A stretch of DNA of 64,000 bases from a virus (IMGVR_UViG_3300033075_000716:3935-67934), one strand, 5' to 3'. Positions 25,530 through 52,046 are shown, numbered from the stretch's first letter. Numbers and translations: made by a program. Notes: generated from the letters alone by a model not told the origin.

Positions 25530-25847
25530 ATGAAAACCCTATCCCAACTCGCCCGCGCCGCCGAACATCGCCTTGCCGTAATCCAGGCCGTGCAAGAATG
25601 CCTCCACGTTCCCGAAAACGTACTGGCCAATTATCCGGACGTTCACGAGGTCTACCTGTCCATGCACGGGCGAGAGGATGACGCCGTGCGACTGTCCGCC
25701 CAACTTCCCAAGTCCGAATCCCCAATCCTTGACGCTGTTCTCCAACGAAGCCTCCCCGCCGGCGTCGCCGTCTCGCAAGAAGTCATCCGCCGCGTGCGCG
25801 AGATTGTAAAAAAAAAGCGACCCCCGGAGAGTTCCTTGCCCGAGTGA
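25530..25847 (+). CDS. hypothetical protein
   Basis: ATG 14 nt after TTGTACGC (25508-25515); coupled to MuF. Confidence 0.55.
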   Translation: MKTLSQLARAAEHRLAVIQAVQECLHVPENVLANYPDVHEVYLSMHGREDDAVRLSAQLPKSESPILDAVLQRSLPAGVAVSQEVIRRVREIVKKKRPPESSLPE

Positions 25848-27796
25848 GGGACGTTCTCGCGGAGTATGAGCCGCTTCTTGCCGCGACCATCAGCGACGCC
25901 CTCCTGGCCGGATGGCTCTACGCTGGGCAGCAACTTGCCGAGCGGCCGGAACTGGAAGACGAATTGCCGGAAGAGGACGAAGGCGAGTTATTTCCGTCCA
26001 AGCAATTCGCGGATGACGGACCGCCCGACGACGACGATCCTCCTACCCTTCAACTGCCGGACCCCGACGAAGATTCTCCCATCGAGTTCCCGTTGCTTCA
26101 AGAGGCGGCCGACTCGCTCGCTACGAAGCGTGTCGTCACGCAGGACGAGTTCAACGAAATCAGCGACCGATTGCGCGAACAGGCGTTTTCCATCGCGTCC
26201 GTGGCGAACCTGGACGCCCTGGAGAAGCTACAGACGGCGTTGACCGACGATATTCGCGACGGCGGCACGTTGGAAGAATTCGCGGATCGCGTGGAGGAAG
26301 TTCTTGGAACGTCGGCACTCGCGCCGCACCATATCGAGAACGTCTACCGCACGAACATTGCCGCGGCGATTGGCGAAGCGGAACAAACGATTCTGGATAA
26401 CGAATACGTCAACTCGGCATTTCCTTACGTCGAGGTTGTCGTCACGCATGACGGTCGGACGCGGAAGAGTCACAAGTATTTCGAGACGGGGGGGATTGAT
26501 GGGACAGCGATTTACAGGAGCGATGATCCAGTTATTCGCAAGTTCTGGCCAGGTTCATGGGACTACCAGTGTTTACCTAGAGACGCAGTAGTGAGAACAT
26601 CTACTGGTCCAAAAGACATTTGTAAAATCAAGACAGGGGATTTGGTTTTAACTCACAAGGGAAGACTTCGCCCGGTTCTTGGCTCTCACACGTCCAAAGG
26701 GCCATCGGAAATTGTATCCTTGCACTTCGATGACGGTTCCGTTTGTTCGTTGACTGATAACCATCGTGTTCTTTCCGAGAACGGTTGGGTCGAATCTGGA
26801 CGCCTTAATGTCGGCGACGAGGTTTTCAAGTATTCCAATTCGACCACGGCGGATATGGTAGCCGCAAAAGTAGATGATGGTTTTAAGCCCGGCGTCTCGG
26901 CAAATGAAATCGTGTCGATCTTCGCACGGGCGGGCATTGATCTTTTGGATTTCCAGGCCAATTTCCAATTCGGGAAGATAAAAGTCGAGCCAAAACGGCG
27001 CGACATTGTGATTAAAGGAATACTGAACACCAATGCCGTCAAGGCTGGCGGCAACTATGGTTTCATACTTGGACATCTTGGCGACAAAATTTGGATGCTT
27101 TTCGGGTTGAATGAACTGGTTTCTCTTTTGGGTGTCCGACATTTTCTTTCTGACATCAGGCGTGCGACAATGGGCATGCATAGTGTCTATCATGGCCTGT
27201 CTGACTTCCGGAGTCCTATTAGCCATGTGTGCTCGATTAGCCTCTCTGATCTTCTCTGCACGATCCGGATGAGTTGCGTAATGGGCGGCATTCGCTTCCC
27301 CGCCGCTTCTCATCACGATGCCATTGGCGGCGAATATCCGCATGGCGGCGCGATATTGGATGTTCGCCCGTCTGCAAATTTCAGACAAACTGGCTTTTCC
27401 GGACCTGTACTCAGCGAAAGCGGCATCTATGCCGCCGGGCCAAGAATCGAACTTAGCGATAGCTTTTTTGGAATATGTCGCGGATCGATTTGGTTGTTTT
27501 CTCATACCTACAATTGTACCAGCACGACCAAGAAAGTAAAAGCCAAGAAGAGACTGCCATGGGGCGGCCAGGATGTTTTCAATCTGTCTGTCCTTGATGA
27601 CGAGAGTTTCATTGCCAACGATACCGTCGTCCACAACTGCCGCTGCGGTTCGATCATGTTGACCCGCGAAGACGCCGCGAAAAAAGGCTTGCGCGAAGCT
27701 CAAGAATGGGTACGAACAGGCACGCCGCCCCCTTACACCTACGTCGAACATCCTCCTTTTGAACCGTGGGAGAGGCCGCCGCCGGAGTGGCGTTGA
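25844..27796 (+). CDS. MuF / SPP1 gp7-like head morphogenesis protein precursor containing an intein
   Basis: HIENVYRTNIAAA and HDGRTRKSH motifs; the conserved ...YQ-CRC motif is split by an intein. Confidence 0.85.
   Translation: MRDVLAEYEPLLAATISDALLAGWLYAGQQLAERPELEDELPEEDEGELFPSKQFADDGPPDDDDPPTLQLPDPDEDSPIEFPLLQEAADSLATKRVVTQDEFNEISDRLREQAFSIASVANLDALEKLQTALTDDIRDGGTLEEFADRVEEVLGTSALAPHHIENVYRTNIAAAIGEAEQTILDNEYVNSAFPYVEVVVTHDGRTRKSHKYFETGGIDGTAIYRSDDPVIRKFWPGSWDYQCLPRDAVVRTSTGPKDICKIKTGDLVLTHKGRLRPVLGSHTSKGPSEIVSLHFDDGSVCSLTDNHRVLSENGWVESGRLNVGDEVFKYSNSTTADMVAAKVDDGFKPGVSANEIVSIFARAGIDLLDFQANFQFGKIKVEPKRRDIVIKGILNTNAVKAGGNYGFILGHLGDKIWMLFGLNELVSLLGVRHFLSDIRRATMGMHSVYHGLSDFRSPISHVCSISLSDLLCTIRMSCVMGGIRFPAASHHDAIGGEYPHGGAILDVRPSANFRQTGFSGPVLSESGIYAAGPRIELSDSFFGICRGSIWLFSHTYNCTSTTKKVKAKKRLPWGGQDVFNLSVLDDESFIANDTVVHNCRCGSIMLTREDAAKKGLREAQEWVRTGTPPPYTYVEHPPFEPWERPPPEWR
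26648..27505 (-). CDS. PD-(D/E)xK (DUF559/Vsr-like) endonuclease encoded antisense inside the intein
   Basis: 285-aa ORF from ATG 27505. Basic helical N-terminus (VRKKMSDTQK), then SKYETIVAASL...YSFNHNVAPFWLDFYLPELEIGLEI. Confidence 0.8.
   Translation of the reverse strand: MRKQPNRSATYSKKAIAKFDSWPGGIDAAFAEYRSGKASLSEICRRANIQYRAAMRIFAANGIVMRSGGEANAAHYATHPDRAEKIREANRAHMANRTPEVRQAMIDTMHAHCRTPDVRKKMSDTQKRNQFIQPEKHPNFVAKMSKYETIVAASLDGIGVQYSFNHNVAPFWLDFYLPELEIGLEIQKINARPCEDRHDFICRDAGLKTIIYFCGYHIRRGRIGILENLVADIKASRFDPTVLGKNTMVISQRTNGTVIEVQGYNFRWPFGRVRAKNRAKSSLVS
27513..27540 (-). promoter_or_regulatory. candidate sigma70-type promoter for the antisense endonuclease (leaderless)
   Basis: Minus strand TTTACT-16 nt-TACAAT with an extended TG; the -10 ends 7 nt before ATG 27505. 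Confidence 0.55.
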
Positions 27797-27908
27797 CGCG
27801 AAAGGCAATGCACGAAAGCAAAGTTTGCATTTTCTGCGATTTGCTTTAACCGATTGGCATTTGGTACGGTTGCGCCCTGAAATAAGAACAGGGGGCGAGG
27901 GCGCGAGC

Positions 27909-28400
27909 GTGCAATCGAAAACAGACAAAGACGCGATCAAGGCGGCAATCACGGAACGGGCAAAAGAACTGGTCGGCGAAGCGATGCGCGAATTGACCCA
28001 AGAGGCAGGGTATCCGCTCGCTCGCCTGGCTGAGTTCGCGAACGCCGCCCGCGTGGGGCAACTATTGACTCACGTTCTCGCCACGGCGCGGACATTGTTC
28101 GTTTCCCAAGACGCGGACGATGAGGACGGCAAAGAGAGCGTGAGCATTGCATCCAGGCCGGTGGACGGGGCCGCAAGCAATGTGACGCGGGAGACGATCC
28201 TTGGGGCGTTGGAAGCGATTTGCGGAAAGCAGAGAAAGAAATCATGCCCGCGATGCAACGGCGGGCTAGGTAAACGCCGGCCGTTGAGCGAGTTCCCGGT
28301 GAACATGACGCGAGACGATGGACGCGGCAAATACTGCAAAACATGCGAGCGGAAGCGGAAGCAGGAATACGACGAGAAGAAAAAAAATGCCGCAACCTAA
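27909..28400 (+). CDS. protein with C-terminal Zn finger
   Basis: CPRC...PLSEF...DGRGKYCKTC motif; GTG start. Confidence 0.6.
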   Translation: MQSKTDKDAIKAAITERAKELVGEAMRELTQEAGYPLARLAEFANAARVGQLLTHVLATARTLFVSQDADDEDGKESVSIASRPVDGAASNVTRETILGALEAICGKQRKKSCPRCNGGLGKRRPLSEFPVNMTRDDGRGKYCKTCERKRKQEYDEKKKNAAT

Positions 28401-28722
28401 GCAGATGATCCAATTCGACAACCTTGACGACAGGCGAGAGCTTCACCGTCTCTTGCTGCGATTGCCTCCGCGCCGCAAGCTGGAATTCCTTCGCTGGGCC
28501 TGCCAACAAGCGAGCTTGACGCCTGGATGCACCACGAAGCCGCAACCGGGCCATGAGACGGTTGAACTTGCCCGGCGTGCGATGCAGAGGCCGGGCGATG
28601 AGACGTTGAATGAGCGGTTGTCGCTGGAGATTTTCTACGACGTTTTTGCTTTGGCGTCGCAGTGGGAGTTCAGTTTGGATGCGGCGGCGCGGGAGTTGGA
28701 GCGGTGGGGGAGAAAAGAATAA
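28387..28722 (+). CDS. hypothetical protein
   Basis: 111-aa helical ORF overlapping the previous stop. Confidence 0.55.
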   Translation: MPQPKQMIQFDNLDDRRELHRLLLRLPPRRKLEFLRWACQQASLTPGCTTKPQPGHETVELARRAMQRPGDETLNERLSLEIFYDVFALASQWEFSLDAAARELERWGRKE

Positions 28723-28745
28723 TCCGCCCCAAAATGAGGCGGATT
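28721..28745. terminator. hairpin between convergent transcription units
   Basis: Stem AATCCGCC / GGCGGATT, followed on the minus strand by ATTCTTTT. Confidence 0.6.
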
Positions 28746-28834
28746 ATCCATGCCGAGCCGATCCTTGGTCTACCGCACCAACCCTTAGCTTACCGTGCCG
28801 CGCCTTGGCCAACCGTACCTAGCCCAGCCCCGCC
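28745..28834 (-). ncRNA. GGY-NN pentamer array C (putative guide RNA)
   Basis: 18 in-phase 5-nt units, 12 starting with GGC or GGT: GGCGG GGCTG GGCTA GGTAC GGTTG GCCAA GGCGC GGCAC GGTAA GCTAA GGGTT GGTGC GGTAG ACCAA GGATC GGCTC GGCAT GGATA. Confidence 0.8.
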
Positions 28835-28841
28835 GATTTCA

Positions 28842-29285
28842 TCACTTCCGCGCTGGCAACATCGTCCGCGTCGGAATTGGTTCAAGATCTCGCGATGCCT
28901 GATGCAACGCAAGCCGCAAACGAGATTGGCTTATCAACCGCCGCGTGTGCTCTTTCCGTGCCTCCGTGGACAACTGCCCAACGTCAACGGCGTCAAGCAG
29001 CCGGCCAGCCTTGCGAATGCTCCGCTTGGCGCGCCGAGTCCGGTTTTCGTTGTGCGCCGACGCTTCCTCATGCGTCAGAATGTGGATTGATTCTTGCGGG
29101 GTCCGCAATGTCCATTCGTAGCCGATGGACTTCAACTCCCTTTCGATGTGAGTTTTCAGATTCAGAAGCAAGAGCCGGTATCGATCCGGGTCGTCCTTGA
29201 ACCGAACCCCCACGGCGTCCTCGCAATCCGATTGCTCAATAACGCAACCGGGATGCAAGTTTGAAACGTCGATGTCGAATTTCAT
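28842..29285 (-). CDS. accessory protein of the RAMP/pentamer-array locus
   Basis: RBS GAGGA; 147 aa; flanked by arrays B and C; helical C-terminus. Confidence 0.75.
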   Translation of the reverse strand: MKFDIDVSNLHPGCVIEQSDCEDAVGVRFKDDPDRYRLLLLNLKTHIERELKSIGYEWTLRTPQESIHILTHEEASAHNENRTRRAKRSIRKAGRLLDAVDVGQLSTEARKEHTRRLISQSRLRLALHQASRDLEPIPTRTMLPARK

Positions 29286-29305
29286 GAGATTCCTCTTTGT
29301 GAAAA

Positions 29306-29395
29306 ATTCCTTGCCATGCCGCGTCCGACCATGCCATGCCTTACCATCCCGGCCACATCGCGCCTCGCCAGGCCCGGCCTACGCCAGGCCAAGCC
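29306..29395 (-). ncRNA. GGY-NN pentamer array B (putative guide RNA)
   Basis: 18 units, 14 GGY: GGCTT GGCCT GGCGT(A) GGCCG GGCCT GGCGA GGCGC GATGT GGCCG GGAT GGTAA GGCAT GGCAT GGTCG GACGC GGCAT GGCAA GGAAT. Two 1-nt phase slips. Confidence 0.8.
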
Positions 29396-29961
29396 TACGC
29401 CGCCTCAAATCTCCCGAATCTCGGCCGGAAGTCGCACAGCCCACACTTCAAACCCGCGTCCTTGATCGCGAGCATGACTTCCGATTCGTTCACCTGCTCA
29501 TCATCGTAGGTCATGGAAATATCACAAGACCATTGATGAAAAATCGGCCGCGTCCGCATCACGCGAGCTTGGCCGATCCGCACCCCGCGCGTATCACGGT
29601 ATTGCTCTTGCTTCCAAAGGTCCGTTGCCTTTTCGTACTTGGCCCCGATGTTCAACACCGCATCTTCCGACACGAAAACGGAACTCTTGAACGTCTTGCC
29701 GAGTTTCGATTTCTTCGCGCCGTCCAAGATCGACGCTTCGATGACTTCGGCGGGGATAATCAGCTTGCCGTCCGTGTTTGTGTACAGTCCCGCGTGCCAC
29801 TCGATTTCCGACATGGCCGCATAATCCTCGTCGGTCTTTTTCCGCTTCCCGCTGATCGCCTTCATCTGTCGGGAAAACTTGTTTGTCGGATCGGCGGTTT
29901 GCCCGTTGTGCATAAGCAACGGCGAAACGCCCGTGATCGAAACCGTCAGATTCTTAATCAT
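29395..29961 (-). CDS. stand-alone RAMP/Cas7-like protein (Vipr-like)
   Basis: First strand LTVSITGVSPLLMH, IIPAEVIEASI, thumb-like RDTRGVRIGQARVMRTRP, and C-terminal Gly-rich loop GLKCGLCDFRPRFGRFE. Confidence 0.75.
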   Translation of the reverse strand: MIKNLTVSITGVSPLLMHNGQTADPTNKFSRQMKAISGKRKKTDEDYAAMSEIEWHAGLYTNTDGKLIIPAEVIEASILDGAKKSKLGKTFKSSVFVSEDAVLNIGAKYEKATDLWKQEQYRDTRGVRIGQARVMRTRPIFHQWSCDISMTYDDEQVNESEVMLAIKDAGLKCGLCDFRPRFGRFEAA

Positions 29962-29982
29962 GCCTTACCCCTTGTGAAAAAG

Positions 29983-30037
29983 AAACCTCGCCAAGCCTCG
30001 TCATACCCAACCTCGCCCAGCCGAACCGCCCCACGCC
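29983..30037 (-). ncRNA. GGY-NN pentamer array A (putative guide RNA)
   Basis: 11 in-phase units, 9 GGY: GGCGT GGGGC GGTTC GGCTG GGCGA GGTTG GGTAT GACGA GGCTT GGCGA GGTTT. Confidence 0.8.
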
Positions 30038-30088
30038 GAGTTGGCTATCTATTTTTGTATAGGTTCTGTACAGACAAAACAAGAGGCA

Positions 30089-30116
30089 TTGAAAAATTAT
30101 TCTGTTTGCACATAAT
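30089..30116 (+). promoter_or_regulatory. candidate promoter for the RHH gene, in an AT-rich divergent region
   Basis: TTGAAA-16 nt-CATAAT ending 6 nt before ATG 30123 (leaderless). Confidence 0.5.
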
Positions 30117-30122
30117 GCAGAC

Positions 30123-30290
30123 ATGGCAAAGAAGAAACCCGGCGAAGGAAACGACCACTCTTTTTGTTTTCGTTGCCGCAAGAAAGACGTTGACGCCTTC
30201 AAGAAAGCCGCCGAGGCCGAAGGATTCGGCACGAACGTCTCCGCCTGGCTCCTATTCCATCTCCGCCGTATCGCCAAGAACGCAAAATAG
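30123..30290 (+). CDS. ribbon-helix-helix-type regulator (not in the supplied ORF track)
   Basis: 55 aa MAKKKPGEGNDHSFCFRCRKKDVDAFKKAAEAEGFGTNVSAWLLFHLRRIAKNAK: alternating beta strand, helix, G turn, VSAWL helix. Confidence 0.7.
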   Translation: MAKKKPGEGNDHSFCFRCRKKDVDAFKKAAEAEGFGTNVSAWLLFHLRRIAKNAK

Positions 30291-51513: not shown

Positions 51514-52046
51514 AGATCGAGGAAATCTACGCGATTGCGCCGGATGCGAACGGCTGGAGGACGATGCCGAGCGGGAATCGGATCAAGTTGGGCGACTACG
51601 TCATTATCGGCGACTACGTCATTATCGGCAACTACGTCCGCATTGCCAGCGGGGTCCGCATCGGCGACTACGTCATTATCGGCAACTACGTCCGCATCGC
51701 CAGCGGGGTCCGCATCGCCAGCGGCGTCAGCATCGCCAGCGGCGTCAGCATCGCCAGCGGCGTCAGCATCGCCAGCGGCGTCAGCATCGCCAGCGGCGTG
51801 ACGCTAACGAAATCTCCTCTCCAGATCCATGGGCCGGAATTTATCGTCTACCCGCACGCTGCTGGAATTATCGGCGTGGGCTGCACGATTCTGTCTTTGG
51901 AAGAATGGTGTGAAAAAGGCGAGGCGTTGGCGAAAGCGAACGACGTTGATTTTGAAAAATACCGCCCGCTAGTCGAAATGGTCGCGGCGTGGATGGGATC
52001 TGACGAGGAGTGGATCGAAGGGACGAAGGGGAACGACGCGAAATAG
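51510..52046 (+). CDS. hexapeptide-repeat (left-handed beta-helix) protein
   Basis: IGDYVI / IGNYVR / IASGVS repeats encoded by 18-bp tandem repeats at about 51590-51800. Confidence 0.8.
   Translation: MKIEEIYAIAPDANGWRTMPSGNRIKLGDYVIIGDYVIIGNYVRIASGVRIGDYVIIGNYVRIASGVRIASGVSIASGVSIASGVSIASGVSIASGVTLTKSPLQIHGPEFIVYPHAAGIIGVGCTILSLEEWCEKGEALAKANDVDFEKYRPLVEMVAAWMGSDEEWIEGTKGNDAK

What the first reader, a model, noticed from the sequence alone, without database searches (positions are those of the whole stretch)
29395..29961. Minimal 188-aa RAMP-like protein outside any CRISPR locus
The sequence shows the RAMP hallmarks: a first strand ending in SPLLMH, IIPAEVIEASI (compare the iPgSslKGa motif), a basic thumb RGVRIGQARVMRTRP, and a terminal Gly-rich loop GLCDFRPRFGRF. 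It is smaller than typical Cas7 proteins and is phage-encoded. It could represent an ancestral-type RAMP scaffold or a Cas7 mimic.
Basis: partly seen in the sequence, partly recalled or inferred. Interest (0 to 1): 0.8.

Follow-up and report, generated by a model that had tools for sequence, protein, structure and literature searches.

The report
Phage Vipr protein with guide-RNA tracts

Summary
The ORF at 29395-29961 (minus strand, 188 aa) is real. It matches the solved SUSP1 Vipr protein (PDB 36pp) over its full length at E = 3e-38, about 40% identity. Every SUSP1 residue reported to hold the GGY motif or the DNA is kept: H18, K34, R40, E72, K83, R138, C173, D177 and R179, with W178 replaced by F. 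An AlphaFold model (pLDDT 89) matches Csm3/Cas7 subunits best.

The 64-kb window has exactly three GGYNN period-5 tracts of 11, 17 and 18 units. All lie on the vipr strand: before vipr, between vipr and a 147-aa gene, and after that gene, ahead of a terminator. Simulations give 0.01 such tracts per window. The 147-aa protein is a distant vap1-like accessory.

In close relatives the GG positions are 92-100% identical and the NN positions only 19-35%, inside near-identical flanks.

This is a complete type II-like VIPR locus in a 68-kb uncultured phage, possibly of a planctomycete. There is no CRISPR array. I found no convincing target. The scan has already met VIPR loci in at least 21 other genomes.

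Local peculiarity: gene-proximal tracts end in a U-run next to the RBS, not in a structured tail.

The parts
30054..30082 (-). Weak candidate promoter (TTGTTT, 17-nt spacer, TACAAA) about 17 nt upstream of tract A
   Evidence: Read directly from the sequence. It matches 3/6 and 4/6 of the consensus hexamers and falls below the threshold of the scan. Inference only.
29983..30037 (-). vrRNA tract A: 11 GGYNN units (9 perfect, plus one GGG and one GAC unit) in the 5' leader of vipr. Guide dinucleotides: GT GC TC TG GA TG AT GA TT GA TT
   Evidence: Period-5 scan, parsing in register, and a Markov null of 0.01 tracts per 64 kb against 3 observed.
29962..29982 (-). U-run end of tract A (CTTTTTCACAA) followed by the RBS (GGGG) of vipr
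   Evidence: The same GGxTTTTT-RBS-ATG arrangement precedes vipr or vap in L003, L004, L033, L045 and L046.
29395..29961 (-). vipr: 188-aa minimal RAMP (RRM core, alpha-bundle, thumb hairpin, G-loop)
   Evidence: PDB 36pp_D SUSP1 Vipr E = 3e-38; phrog_4652 E = 1e-60; AF2 pLDDT 89.2; Foldseek best matches Csm3/Cas7; H18, R138, D177 and R179 invariant in 16 homologs.
29306..29390 (-). vrRNA tract B: 17 units between vipr and the accessory gene, with a +1 slip after unit 2 (29380) and a 1-nt overlap at 29350. It may be a staggered array of 2-3 short vrRNAs. The last 9 units (29306-29350) carry AT AA AT AT CG GC AT AA AT
   Evidence: Staggered arrays with 1-nt overlaps are described in the discovery paper, fig. 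S18 legend.
29286..29305 (-). U-run end of tract B (TTTTCACAAAGAGG) with the RBS of the accessory gene
28842..29285 (-). vap1-like accessory gene, 147 aa: an N-terminal helix/helix/beta-hairpin module plus a long C-terminal helical hairpin
   Evidence: Homologs lie next to vipr in L003/L004 and L045/L046. The family has 1,142 representative clusters. 8 of 50 members hit phrog_5926, the PHROG of SUSP1-type vap1. hhalign against vap1 gives E = 3.5e-4 over 113 co-linear columns at probability 37%. AF2 pLDDT 94.4.
28745..28834 (-). vrRNA tract C: 18 GGYNN units in one register (11 perfect GGY; 3 with a purine at Y; GCC, GCT and ACC at units 6, 10 and 14) in the 3' region of the operon
28707..28749 (-). 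Intrinsic terminator-like hairpin (core ATAATCCGCC / GGCGGATTAT; 15 pairs by the scanner, G-T pairs included) plus a T-run. It overlaps the last unit of tract C and may also serve as that vrRNA's 3' tail

Best explanation
This is a complete phage-borne VIPR (Viral Interference Programmable Repeat) locus of the vap1-associated, type II-like kind. It is a minus-strand cassette inserted among plus-strand phage genes. It appears to be transcribed from upstream of tract A to the terminator at about 28710. It encodes Vipr (a minimal RAMP), a vap1-like accessory protein, and three GGYNN tracts that give rise to vrRNAs. By homology with the SUSP1 system, one Vipr protomer binds each pentamer. His18, Asp177, Arg138, Phe178 and Arg179 sequester the GGY bases, and the filament presents the NN dinucleotides. 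Those dinucleotides pair with double-stranded DNA while skipping every third target base, and the bound filament blocks transcription of a competing mobile element such as a satellite, prophage or rival phage. What is shown here: the homology, the conserved contact residues, the RAMP fold, the tracts and their statistics, hypervariable NN in relatives, and the linkage of the accessory gene to vipr. What is inferred: expression and processing of the vrRNAs, filament formation, DNA silencing, and the identity of the target, which was not found.
For: Vipr homology: PDB 36pp_D at E = 3e-38 over residues 3-186, and phrog_4652 at E = 1e-60, the same PHROG as the SUSP1-like phage's gene. The residues shown by mutagenesis or structure to matter in SUSP1 (H17, K33, R39, K82, R138, D177, R179) are all kept and are invariant or nearly so in 16 homologs. 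Fold: AF2 pLDDT 89.2, with Csm3/Cas7 as the best PDB matches. Guide tracts: exactly 3 GGYNN tracts in 64 kb, all on the vipr strand and flanking vipr and vap, against 0.01 expected, and none elsewhere in the 67.9-kb record. Comparative: 27 of 28 viral loci and 7 of 7 genome loci encoding relatives have same-strand tracts beside vipr. In L003/L004/L033, GG identity is 92-100% and NN identity 19-35%, between conserved flanks and tails. Accessory gene: linked to vipr in 4 of 4 viral loci found through it and distantly vap1-like. On the Vipr tree the window groups with the other vap1-associated systems, apart from the HNH-associated ones, at 98/92 support. Mechanism and definitions come from the preprints 10.64898/2026.04.26.720920.720927 and 2026.10.15.759431.
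Against: I identified no natural target. Exact 1-nt-skip scans and mismatch-tolerant scans gave nothing, or single hits compatible with chance. Tracts A and B lack the structured 3' tail (pseudoknot or hairpin) that the papers treat as part of a vrRNA. Several units are degenerate, and tracts B and C (17 and 18 units) exceed the 9-16 units reported for the type II clades. The link between ORF147 and vap1 is weak (hhalign probability 37%). No strong promoter was found. There are no expression data.
Confidence: 0.9

Rival explanations
1. The protein is an orphan Cas7/Csm3 left over from a decayed CRISPR-Cas system, or a phage-encoded Cas7 mimic that interferes with host class 1 CRISPR complexes as an anti-CRISPR decoy. 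On this reading it has no guide RNAs of its own.
For: The best structural matches among PDB entries up to April 2026 are Csm3/Cas7 subunits. The gene is phage-borne.
Against: Sequence identity to Cas7 is only 10-16%, against 40% and E = 3e-38 to Vipr. The window has no cas genes and no CRISPR array. The residues that read GGY are conserved. Its own GGYNN tracts flank it and co-occur with relatives in 34 of 35 loci.
Confidence: 0.03
2. The locus is a VIPR remnant or a cis-regulatory derivative. The protein is a true Vipr, but the tracts in the 5' leaders act mainly as Vipr-binding operators that autoregulate translation of vipr and vap, not as trans-acting guides against other elements.
For: Tracts A and B end in a U-run 10-15 nt before the RBS of the next gene, and this arrangement is conserved in all five close relatives. 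They have no structured tail. No target was found.
Against: NN positions are hypervariable at chance-level identity between near-identical relatives. That is expected for guides under diversifying selection and not for a fixed operator. Tract C is 3' of the genes. SUSP1 also has a vrRNA directly upstream of vipr that acts in trans.
Confidence: 0.05
3. The locus is a host-defence-type (nuclease-coupled) VIPR that destroys its target instead of silencing it.
For: Vipr relatives at about 45% identity are paired with an HNH endonuclease. The discovery paper reports nuclease-type vap genes in types III-V.
Against: No HNH or other nuclease gene lies in this cassette. The accessory gene is vap1-like with no nuclease hit. 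The window's Vipr is separated from the HNH-associated clade at 98/92 support.
Confidence: 0.02

Closest known systems
Type II VIPR system of Escherichia phage SUSP1 (Vipr structure PDB 36pp; bioRxiv 10.64898/2026.04.26.720920, 10.64898/2026.04.26.720927, 10.64898/2026.10.15.759431)
   Same: The Vipr proteins are homologous at about 40% identity over the full length, with all tested RNA- and DNA-contact residues kept. Both have GGYNN tracts on the vipr strand both upstream and downstream of vipr. Both have a roughly 146-aa accessory gene downstream of vipr (phrog_5926 family, distant here). Both are phage-borne and have no CRISPR array.
   Different: In SUSP1-like phages each vrRNA ends in a conserved pseudoknot tail and the vrRNAs form arrays outside the vipr-vap pair. 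Here one tract lies between vipr and vap. Tracts A and B end in a U-run directly before the next gene's RBS, and tract C ends in a terminator hairpin. Phe replaces Trp178. Y is mostly C here and mostly T in the SUSP1-like phage. The host is probably not an enterobacterium: GC is 57%, and the nearest named relative is in a Pirellula MAG.
Close uncultured relatives L003/L004/L033 and L045/L046 (IMG/VR contigs and a Pirellula sp. MAG contig)
   Same: Vipr is 68-71% identical. They carry the same vap1-like gene and the same U-run ending of gene-proximal tracts. L045 and L046 have the same order: tract, vipr, tracts, vap, tracts.
   Different: These relatives have more tracts per spacer, separated by hairpin tails with a conserved GCGAATAGG loop. 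The window has no such tail in its VIPR cassette. In L003/L004 the vap gene lies upstream of vipr.
Cas7/Csm3 backbone subunits of class 1 CRISPR effectors (e.g. 6ifn, 9g9b, 8z4j)
   Same: They share the RRM core, thumb hairpin and glycine-rich loop, and they oligomerise along a guide RNA with periodic base flipping. The window's model aligns at TM about 0.5.
   Different: Sequence identity is 10-16%. Vipr has no crRNA repeat handle or spacer, a 5-nt protein period instead of 6-nt, a gapped 2-of-3 target code, and no Cas5, Cas6, Cas10 or Cas11 partners.

Membership tests
VIPR system (Vipr + vrRNA + vap) | Protein homologous to an experimentally characterised Vipr | tested here: met
   PDB 36pp_D SUSP1 Vipr, E = 3e-38, residues 3-186 of 188. 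tblastn to Felixounavirus phages gives 39-40% identity. Same PHROG, 4652.
VIPR system (Vipr + vrRNA + vap) | Single-RRM RAMP fold with alpha-bundle, thumb and G-loop | tested here: met
   AF2 pLDDT 89.2. Elements: strand 2-11, helices 28-57, helix 71-84, hairpin 122-141, helix 159-173, loop 174-184. Foldseek best matches are Csm3/Cas7, E about 1e-5.
VIPR system (Vipr + vrRNA + vap) | Residues that read the GGY motif and clamp the DNA (SUSP1 H17, K33, R39, K82, R138, D177, W178, R179) | tested here: met
   The counterparts are H18, K34, R40, K83, R138, D177, F178 and R179 (alignment read). H18, R138, D177 and R179 are invariant and K34 and R40 nearly invariant in 16 homologs. W to F keeps an aromatic side chain for stacking.
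VIPR system (Vipr + vrRNA + vap) | Tandem YNNGG/GGYNN repeats (at least 4 units) next to vipr on the same strand | tested here: met
   Three tracts of 11, 17 and 18 units, the only ones in the 64-kb window and in the 67.9-kb record. The Markov null gives 0.01 per window.
VIPR system (Vipr + vrRNA + vap) | GGY conserved and NN hypervariable among related loci | tested here: met
   In L003/L004/L033, GG identity is 92-100%, Y 62-85% and NN 19-35%, with near-identical flanks. This was tested on the window's closest clade, not on the window's own tracts, which have no near-identical counterpart.
VIPR system (Vipr + vrRNA + vap) | Conserved structured 3' tail after the repeat tract | tested here: inconclusive
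   Tracts A and B end in TTTTTCACAA plus the RBS, with no hairpin. Tract C runs into a hairpin of 15 pairs by the scanner's count that looks like a terminator. Relatives have hairpin tails with a GCGAATAGG loop, and no such tail occurs in the window's cassette. There is no Rfam family.
VIPR system (Vipr + vrRNA + vap) | Accessory vap gene in the locus (vap1 for type II) | tested here: inconclusive
   The 147-aa gene is linked to vipr in 4 of 4 loci found through it. 8 of 50 family members hit phrog_5926, the PHROG of SUSP1-type vap1, best E = 4e-6. hhalign gives E = 3.5e-4 at probability 37%. Direct BLASTP finds nothing. The fold search is uninformative.
VIPR system (Vipr + vrRNA + vap) | vrRNAs are expressed, co-purify with Vipr and direct DNA binding by the 1-nt-skip rule | not testable with these tools
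   This needs sRNA-seq, pull-down and binding or repression assays.
VIPR system (Vipr + vrRNA + vap) | Natural targets with at least 80% NN match in competing mobile elements, and no self-targeting | tested here: inconclusive
   No self-target scores above the shuffle level, as the papers report. No convincing external target was found.
CRISPR-Cas class 1 (Cas7 as part of a cas operon) | CRISPR array and other cas genes nearby | tested here: not met
   No CRISPR-like repeats occur in the 64 kb. The neighbours are phage genes: a MuF-like minor head gene with an intein, a Lar-like gene and a 1310-aa ORF.

The most novel reading that the evidence does not exclude
In this planctomycete-associated clade the vrRNAs are not stand-alone genes with structured tails. 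They are carved out of the vipr-vap operon mRNA, and the conserved GGxTTTTT end placed 10-15 nt before each RBS has two roles. It acts as the processing or filament stop site, and it acts as a switch by which Vipr loading on the leader controls translation of vipr and vap. That would be a built-in feedback loop linking guide loading to effector dosage, and the preprints I read do not mention one.
Probability: 0.2. Interest if true: 0.5.

Novelty: new member of a known kind. Interest (0 to 1): 0.3.

Why it matters
The result confirms that a stand-alone minimal RAMP can be recognised from raw sequence. It also extends the recently described VIPR systems to a 68-kb uncultured phage whose nearest named relative sits in a Pirellula (Planctomycetota) MAG. 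The locus adds a compact operon-embedded layout: a guide tract in each leader, spacer and trailer, with U-run ends instead of pseudoknot tails. It also shows that the vap1-like accessory family is large (more than 1,100 clusters at 50% identity) and tracks the Vipr phylogeny. It does not change the picture drawn by the 2026 preprints, and this scan has already met VIPR loci in at least 21 other genomes.

Tried and rejected
1. Pfam gives nothing for Vipr or the 147-aa protein, and Rfam gives nothing for the tracts.

2. Direct BLASTP of ORF147 against SUSP1-type vap1 finds no alignment. The 3-sequence profile gives probability 2%. Only the 50-sequence profile and the PHROG bridge give a weak link.

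3. The word-indexed homolog search for ORF147 found only the protein itself. The exhaustive HMM search was needed.

4. Fold searches for the accessory protein were uninformative. Foldseek pdb has no hit at E < 0.001, and its weak rows are mostly winged-helix regulators. VIA wide gives only generic helical hairpins at Z of 7 or less. A DNA-binding role is therefore not shown here.

5. Target hunting found no convincing target:
- Guide A full length: 0 hits in viral contigs and 0 in metagenomes.
- Guide C units 1-10: 0 hits in viral contigs.
- Guide C units 9-18: one AT-rich virus seen twice, with no extension (4 of 16). Judged chance.
- Guide C units 1-11: one metagenome contig, intergenic, with no extension (2 of 14). 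The contig is purine-skewed and has no PHROG hits. Judged not significant after six scans.
- Guide A with up to 3 mismatches in 151 genomes of the Pirellula MAG's family: 5 hits against 3 for the reversed control.
- Cross-scans between the window and related loci stay within the shuffled-guide null.

6. The GCGAATAGG tail loop of relatives does not occur in the window's cassette: 27 one-mismatch matches elsewhere, none exact, against about 18 expected by chance.

7. No tRNA gene occurs in the window or in the close relatives.

9. The 50-sequence alignment was too divergent for a locus scan, so I used an 8-sequence one.

Full report
**Observation.** The ORF at 29395-29961 on the minus strand is real: 188 aa with an ATG start. 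Pfam has no match. PHROGs places it in phrog_4652, function unknown, at E = 1e-60. A sequence search of the PDB gives one strong full-length match, chain 36pp_D "SUSP1 Vipr protein", at E = 3e-38 over residues 3-186. A tblastn search of phage records finds 131 records, nearly all Felixounavirus-type coliphages, at 39-40% identity and annotated as hypothetical protein.

**What Vipr is.** Three 2026 preprints describe VIPR (Viral Interference Programmable Repeat) systems.
- Vipr is a minimal stand-alone RAMP, found mostly in phages and proviruses. It is usually paired with one accessory gene (vap) and with vrRNAs made of 9-16 YNNGG repeats followed by a conserved tail.
- The NN dinucleotides specify a double-stranded DNA target in which every third base is skipped. 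Binding silences transcription of competing satellites, prophages or phages (10.64898/2026.04.26.720920).
- Cryo-EM shows one protomer per pentamer. In SUSP1, H17 and D177 read G1, R138 and W178 hold G2, and E71/M72/R179/C173 form the pyrimidine pocket. K33, R39, K82 and K88 contact the DNA strands (10.64898/2026.04.26.720927).
- The third preprint shows SUSP1 using VIPR against a resident satellite (10.64898/2026.04.26... series, 10.64898/2026.10.15.759431).

**The protein passes the tests.**
- In the alignment the window's counterparts of those residues are H18, K34, R40, E72/V73, K83, G88/K89, R138, C173, D177, F178 and R179. All are identical except M to V and W to F, both conservative.
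- In an alignment of 16 homologs, H18, R138, D177 and R179 are invariant and K34 and R40 nearly so, as is the MHNGQTADP block.
- An AlphaFold2 model built from that alignment has mean pLDDT 89.2. It shows strand 1, a two-helix bundle, RRM helix-1, a long beta-hairpin (the thumb, 122-141), the second RRM helix and the terminal glycine-rich loop.
- Foldseek against the PDB returns Csm3/Cas7 subunits of type III-A and type VII complexes as the best matches, at E about 1e-5, probability 1.00 and TM about 0.5.

**The guide tracts.** A scan of both strands of the window for period-5 GGY units finds exactly three tracts, all on the minus strand. First-order Markov simulations give 0.01 such tracts per 64 kb. 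The full 67.9-kb record has no others. Parsed in register:
- Tract A, 29983-30037: 11 units, in the vipr leader.
- Tract B, 29306-29390: 17 units filling the vipr-ORF147 spacer. It has a +1 slip after unit 2 and a 1-nt overlap at 29350, which resembles the "staggered" arrays of the discovery paper.
- Tract C, 28745-28834: 18 units in one register. It runs into a terminator-like hairpin that the scanner counts as 15 pairs, followed by a T-run.

Tracts A and B both end in TTTTTCACAA, followed by the RBS and ATG of the next gene. Rfam has no family for any of this.

**Comparative evidence.**
- Of 28 IMG/VR loci encoding relatives (42-70% identity), 27 have same-strand GGYNN tracts beside vipr. 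The exception ends 33 bases after the gene. All 7 loci from species-representative genomes have them too.
- The closest relatives are L003, L004 and L033. L003 and L004 encode identical Vipr proteins, and L033's is nearly identical. Their flanks and tails are near-identical, yet their tracts differ. GG positions are 92-100% identical, Y positions 62-85% and NN positions 19-35%, about the random level. That is the published vrRNA signature.
- In this clade, tracts followed by another tract end in a hairpin tail with a conserved GCGAATAGG loop and differing stem sequences that still pair. Tracts followed by a gene end in GGxTTTTT plus an RBS.
- The window has only the second kind plus the terminal hairpin. 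The GCGAATAGG loop does not occur in its cassette.

**The accessory gene.** ORF 28842-29285 (147 aa) has no Pfam hit and only a marginal hit to phrog_5926 at E = 0.047. The gene after vipr in the SUSP1-like phage VpaE1 belongs to that same PHROG at E = 7e-76.
- Homologs lie upstream of vipr in L003 and L004.
- An exhaustive profile search finds 1,142 representative clusters of proteins of about 150 aa. Of 50 sampled members, 8 hit phrog_5926, best E = 4e-6. The 50-sequence profile aligns co-linearly with vap1 over 113 columns at hhalign E = 3.5e-4 and probability 37%.
- A locus search seeded only with this family returned four viral loci, and all four carry vipr next to it. Two new ones, L045 and L046, have the window's exact order: tract, vipr, tracts, vap, tracts.
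- The AF2 model is confident (pLDDT 94.4). It shows a small helix/helix/beta-hairpin module followed by a long helical hairpin. Fold searches give nothing decisive.
- I call the gene vap1-like, with the family link marked as weak.
- By contrast, 14 of the roughly 45%-identical loci pair vipr with an HNH endonuclease.
- On a maximum-likelihood Vipr tree, the window, L003/L033, L045/L046 and the SUSP1-like phage form one side of a branch with 98/92 support. The HNH-associated and all remaining systems are on the other side. The SUSP1-like row sits on a long branch, so its exact position is uncertain.

**Context.** The window is an IMG/VR virus record of 67,934 bp, estimated 76% complete. Most genes are on the plus strand. 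The VIPR cassette is an inverted insert. On one side lie a MuF-like minor head gene carrying an intein and a Lar-like gene. On the other lies a 1310-aa ORF.
- The window has no CRISPR-like array and no tRNA gene.
- The nearest named relative (70% identity) lies on a short contig binned into a Pirellula sp. MAG. Together with 57% GC, this hints weakly at a planctomycete host.

**Targets.** I found none that convinces.
- Under skip lengths of 0-3 nt, no site in the window or the rest of the record scores above shuffled controls, apart from the tracts themselves at skip 3. This agrees with the papers' report of no self-targeting.
- Exact 1-nt-skip patterns gave 0 hits for guide A in viral contigs and in metagenomes and 0 hits for C units 1-10.
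- C units 9-18 hit one AT-rich virus, seen twice, with no extension.
- C units 1-11 hit one intergenic site on a purine-skewed metagenome contig, again with no extension.
- After six scans, two isolated hits with mutually inconsistent guide boundaries are what chance can give.
- A 3-mismatch search of 151 genomes of the Pirellula MAG's family gave 5 hits against 3 for the reversed control.
- Cross-scans among the fetched loci stayed within the null.
- The large collections can only be scanned for exact patterns, so this absence is weak evidence.

**Verdict.** The gene encodes a minimal, stand-alone, phage-encoded RAMP that by homology forms a filament on repeat RNA. It is a Vipr, and the locus is a complete VIPR system of the vap1-associated, type II-like kind.
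- The "Cas7 mimic" alternative is not supported.
- The kind has been known since April 2026, and this scan has met it in at least 21 other genomes. It is therefore a new member of a known kind.
- The local peculiarities are the operon-embedded tracts, the U-run ends next to each RBS in place of structured tails, the tracts of 17-18 units with slips, Phe in place of Trp178, and the possible planctomycete host. They are worth a line in a survey but do not amount to a new kind of system.
- The most novel reading left open is that the leader tracts also feed back on translation of vipr and vap. I give it a probability of 0.2.

Noticed in passing
window 30123-30290 (+), with promoter-like site 30089-30116: A 55-aa ORF runs divergently from the VIPR cassette, preceded by a TTGAAA-16-CATAAT site (10/12 match). 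By eye its sequence looks like a ribbon-helix-helix protein, but Pfam and PHROGs give no hit. It could be a regulator of the cassette.
   Followed up: partly
window 25844-27796 (+) and 26648-27952 (-): A MuF-like minor head gene is interrupted by a Hint/intein-like insert (Pfam Phage_Mu_F, PT-HINT, Hint_2 and Intein_splicing, all below the curated cut-offs). A 434-aa ORF runs antisense through the same DNA.
   Followed up: no
window 27759-28400 (+): The C-terminus of this 213-aa ORF matches a Lar-like restriction-alleviation PHROG (phrog_5558, E = 9e-7). It is an anti-defence-type gene right beside the VIPR cassette.
   Followed up: no
L003:1470-1560, L004:1460-1550, L033:1040-1110: Just after the last vrRNA, the closest relatives carry a tRNA-like T-arm and acceptor end (GGGTTCGATCCCCACCCGATTCA). 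ARAGORN finds no complete tRNA gene. It may be an attachment-site remnant or a tRNA-like 3' cap.
   Followed up: partly
L006, L007, L009, L010, L012, L014-L019, L021, L026, L030 (next to vipr): An HNH endonuclease of about 140 aa lies directly beside vipr in 14 of the roughly 45%-identical loci. The conserved pattern C-x2-C ... HH ... C-x2-CH is visible in 7 aligned representatives. It is a nuclease-type accessory gene, and the arrays next to it consist of many short, closely packed tracts.
   Followed up: partly
window 51573-51806 (+): An 18-nt-period coding repeat with 10 copies, typical of a hexapeptide-repeat (left-handed beta-helix) protein.
   Followed up: no
L049:3341-3372 (metagenome contig Ga0179593_1623805): Guide C units 1-11 match this site exactly under the 1-nt-skip rule (22 of 22 specified bases). 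The site is intergenic, on a purine-skewed contig with few ORFs and no PHROG hits among six ORFs tested, and units 12-18 do not match (2 of 14). I judge it chance, but it is the best candidate target seen.
   Followed up: partly
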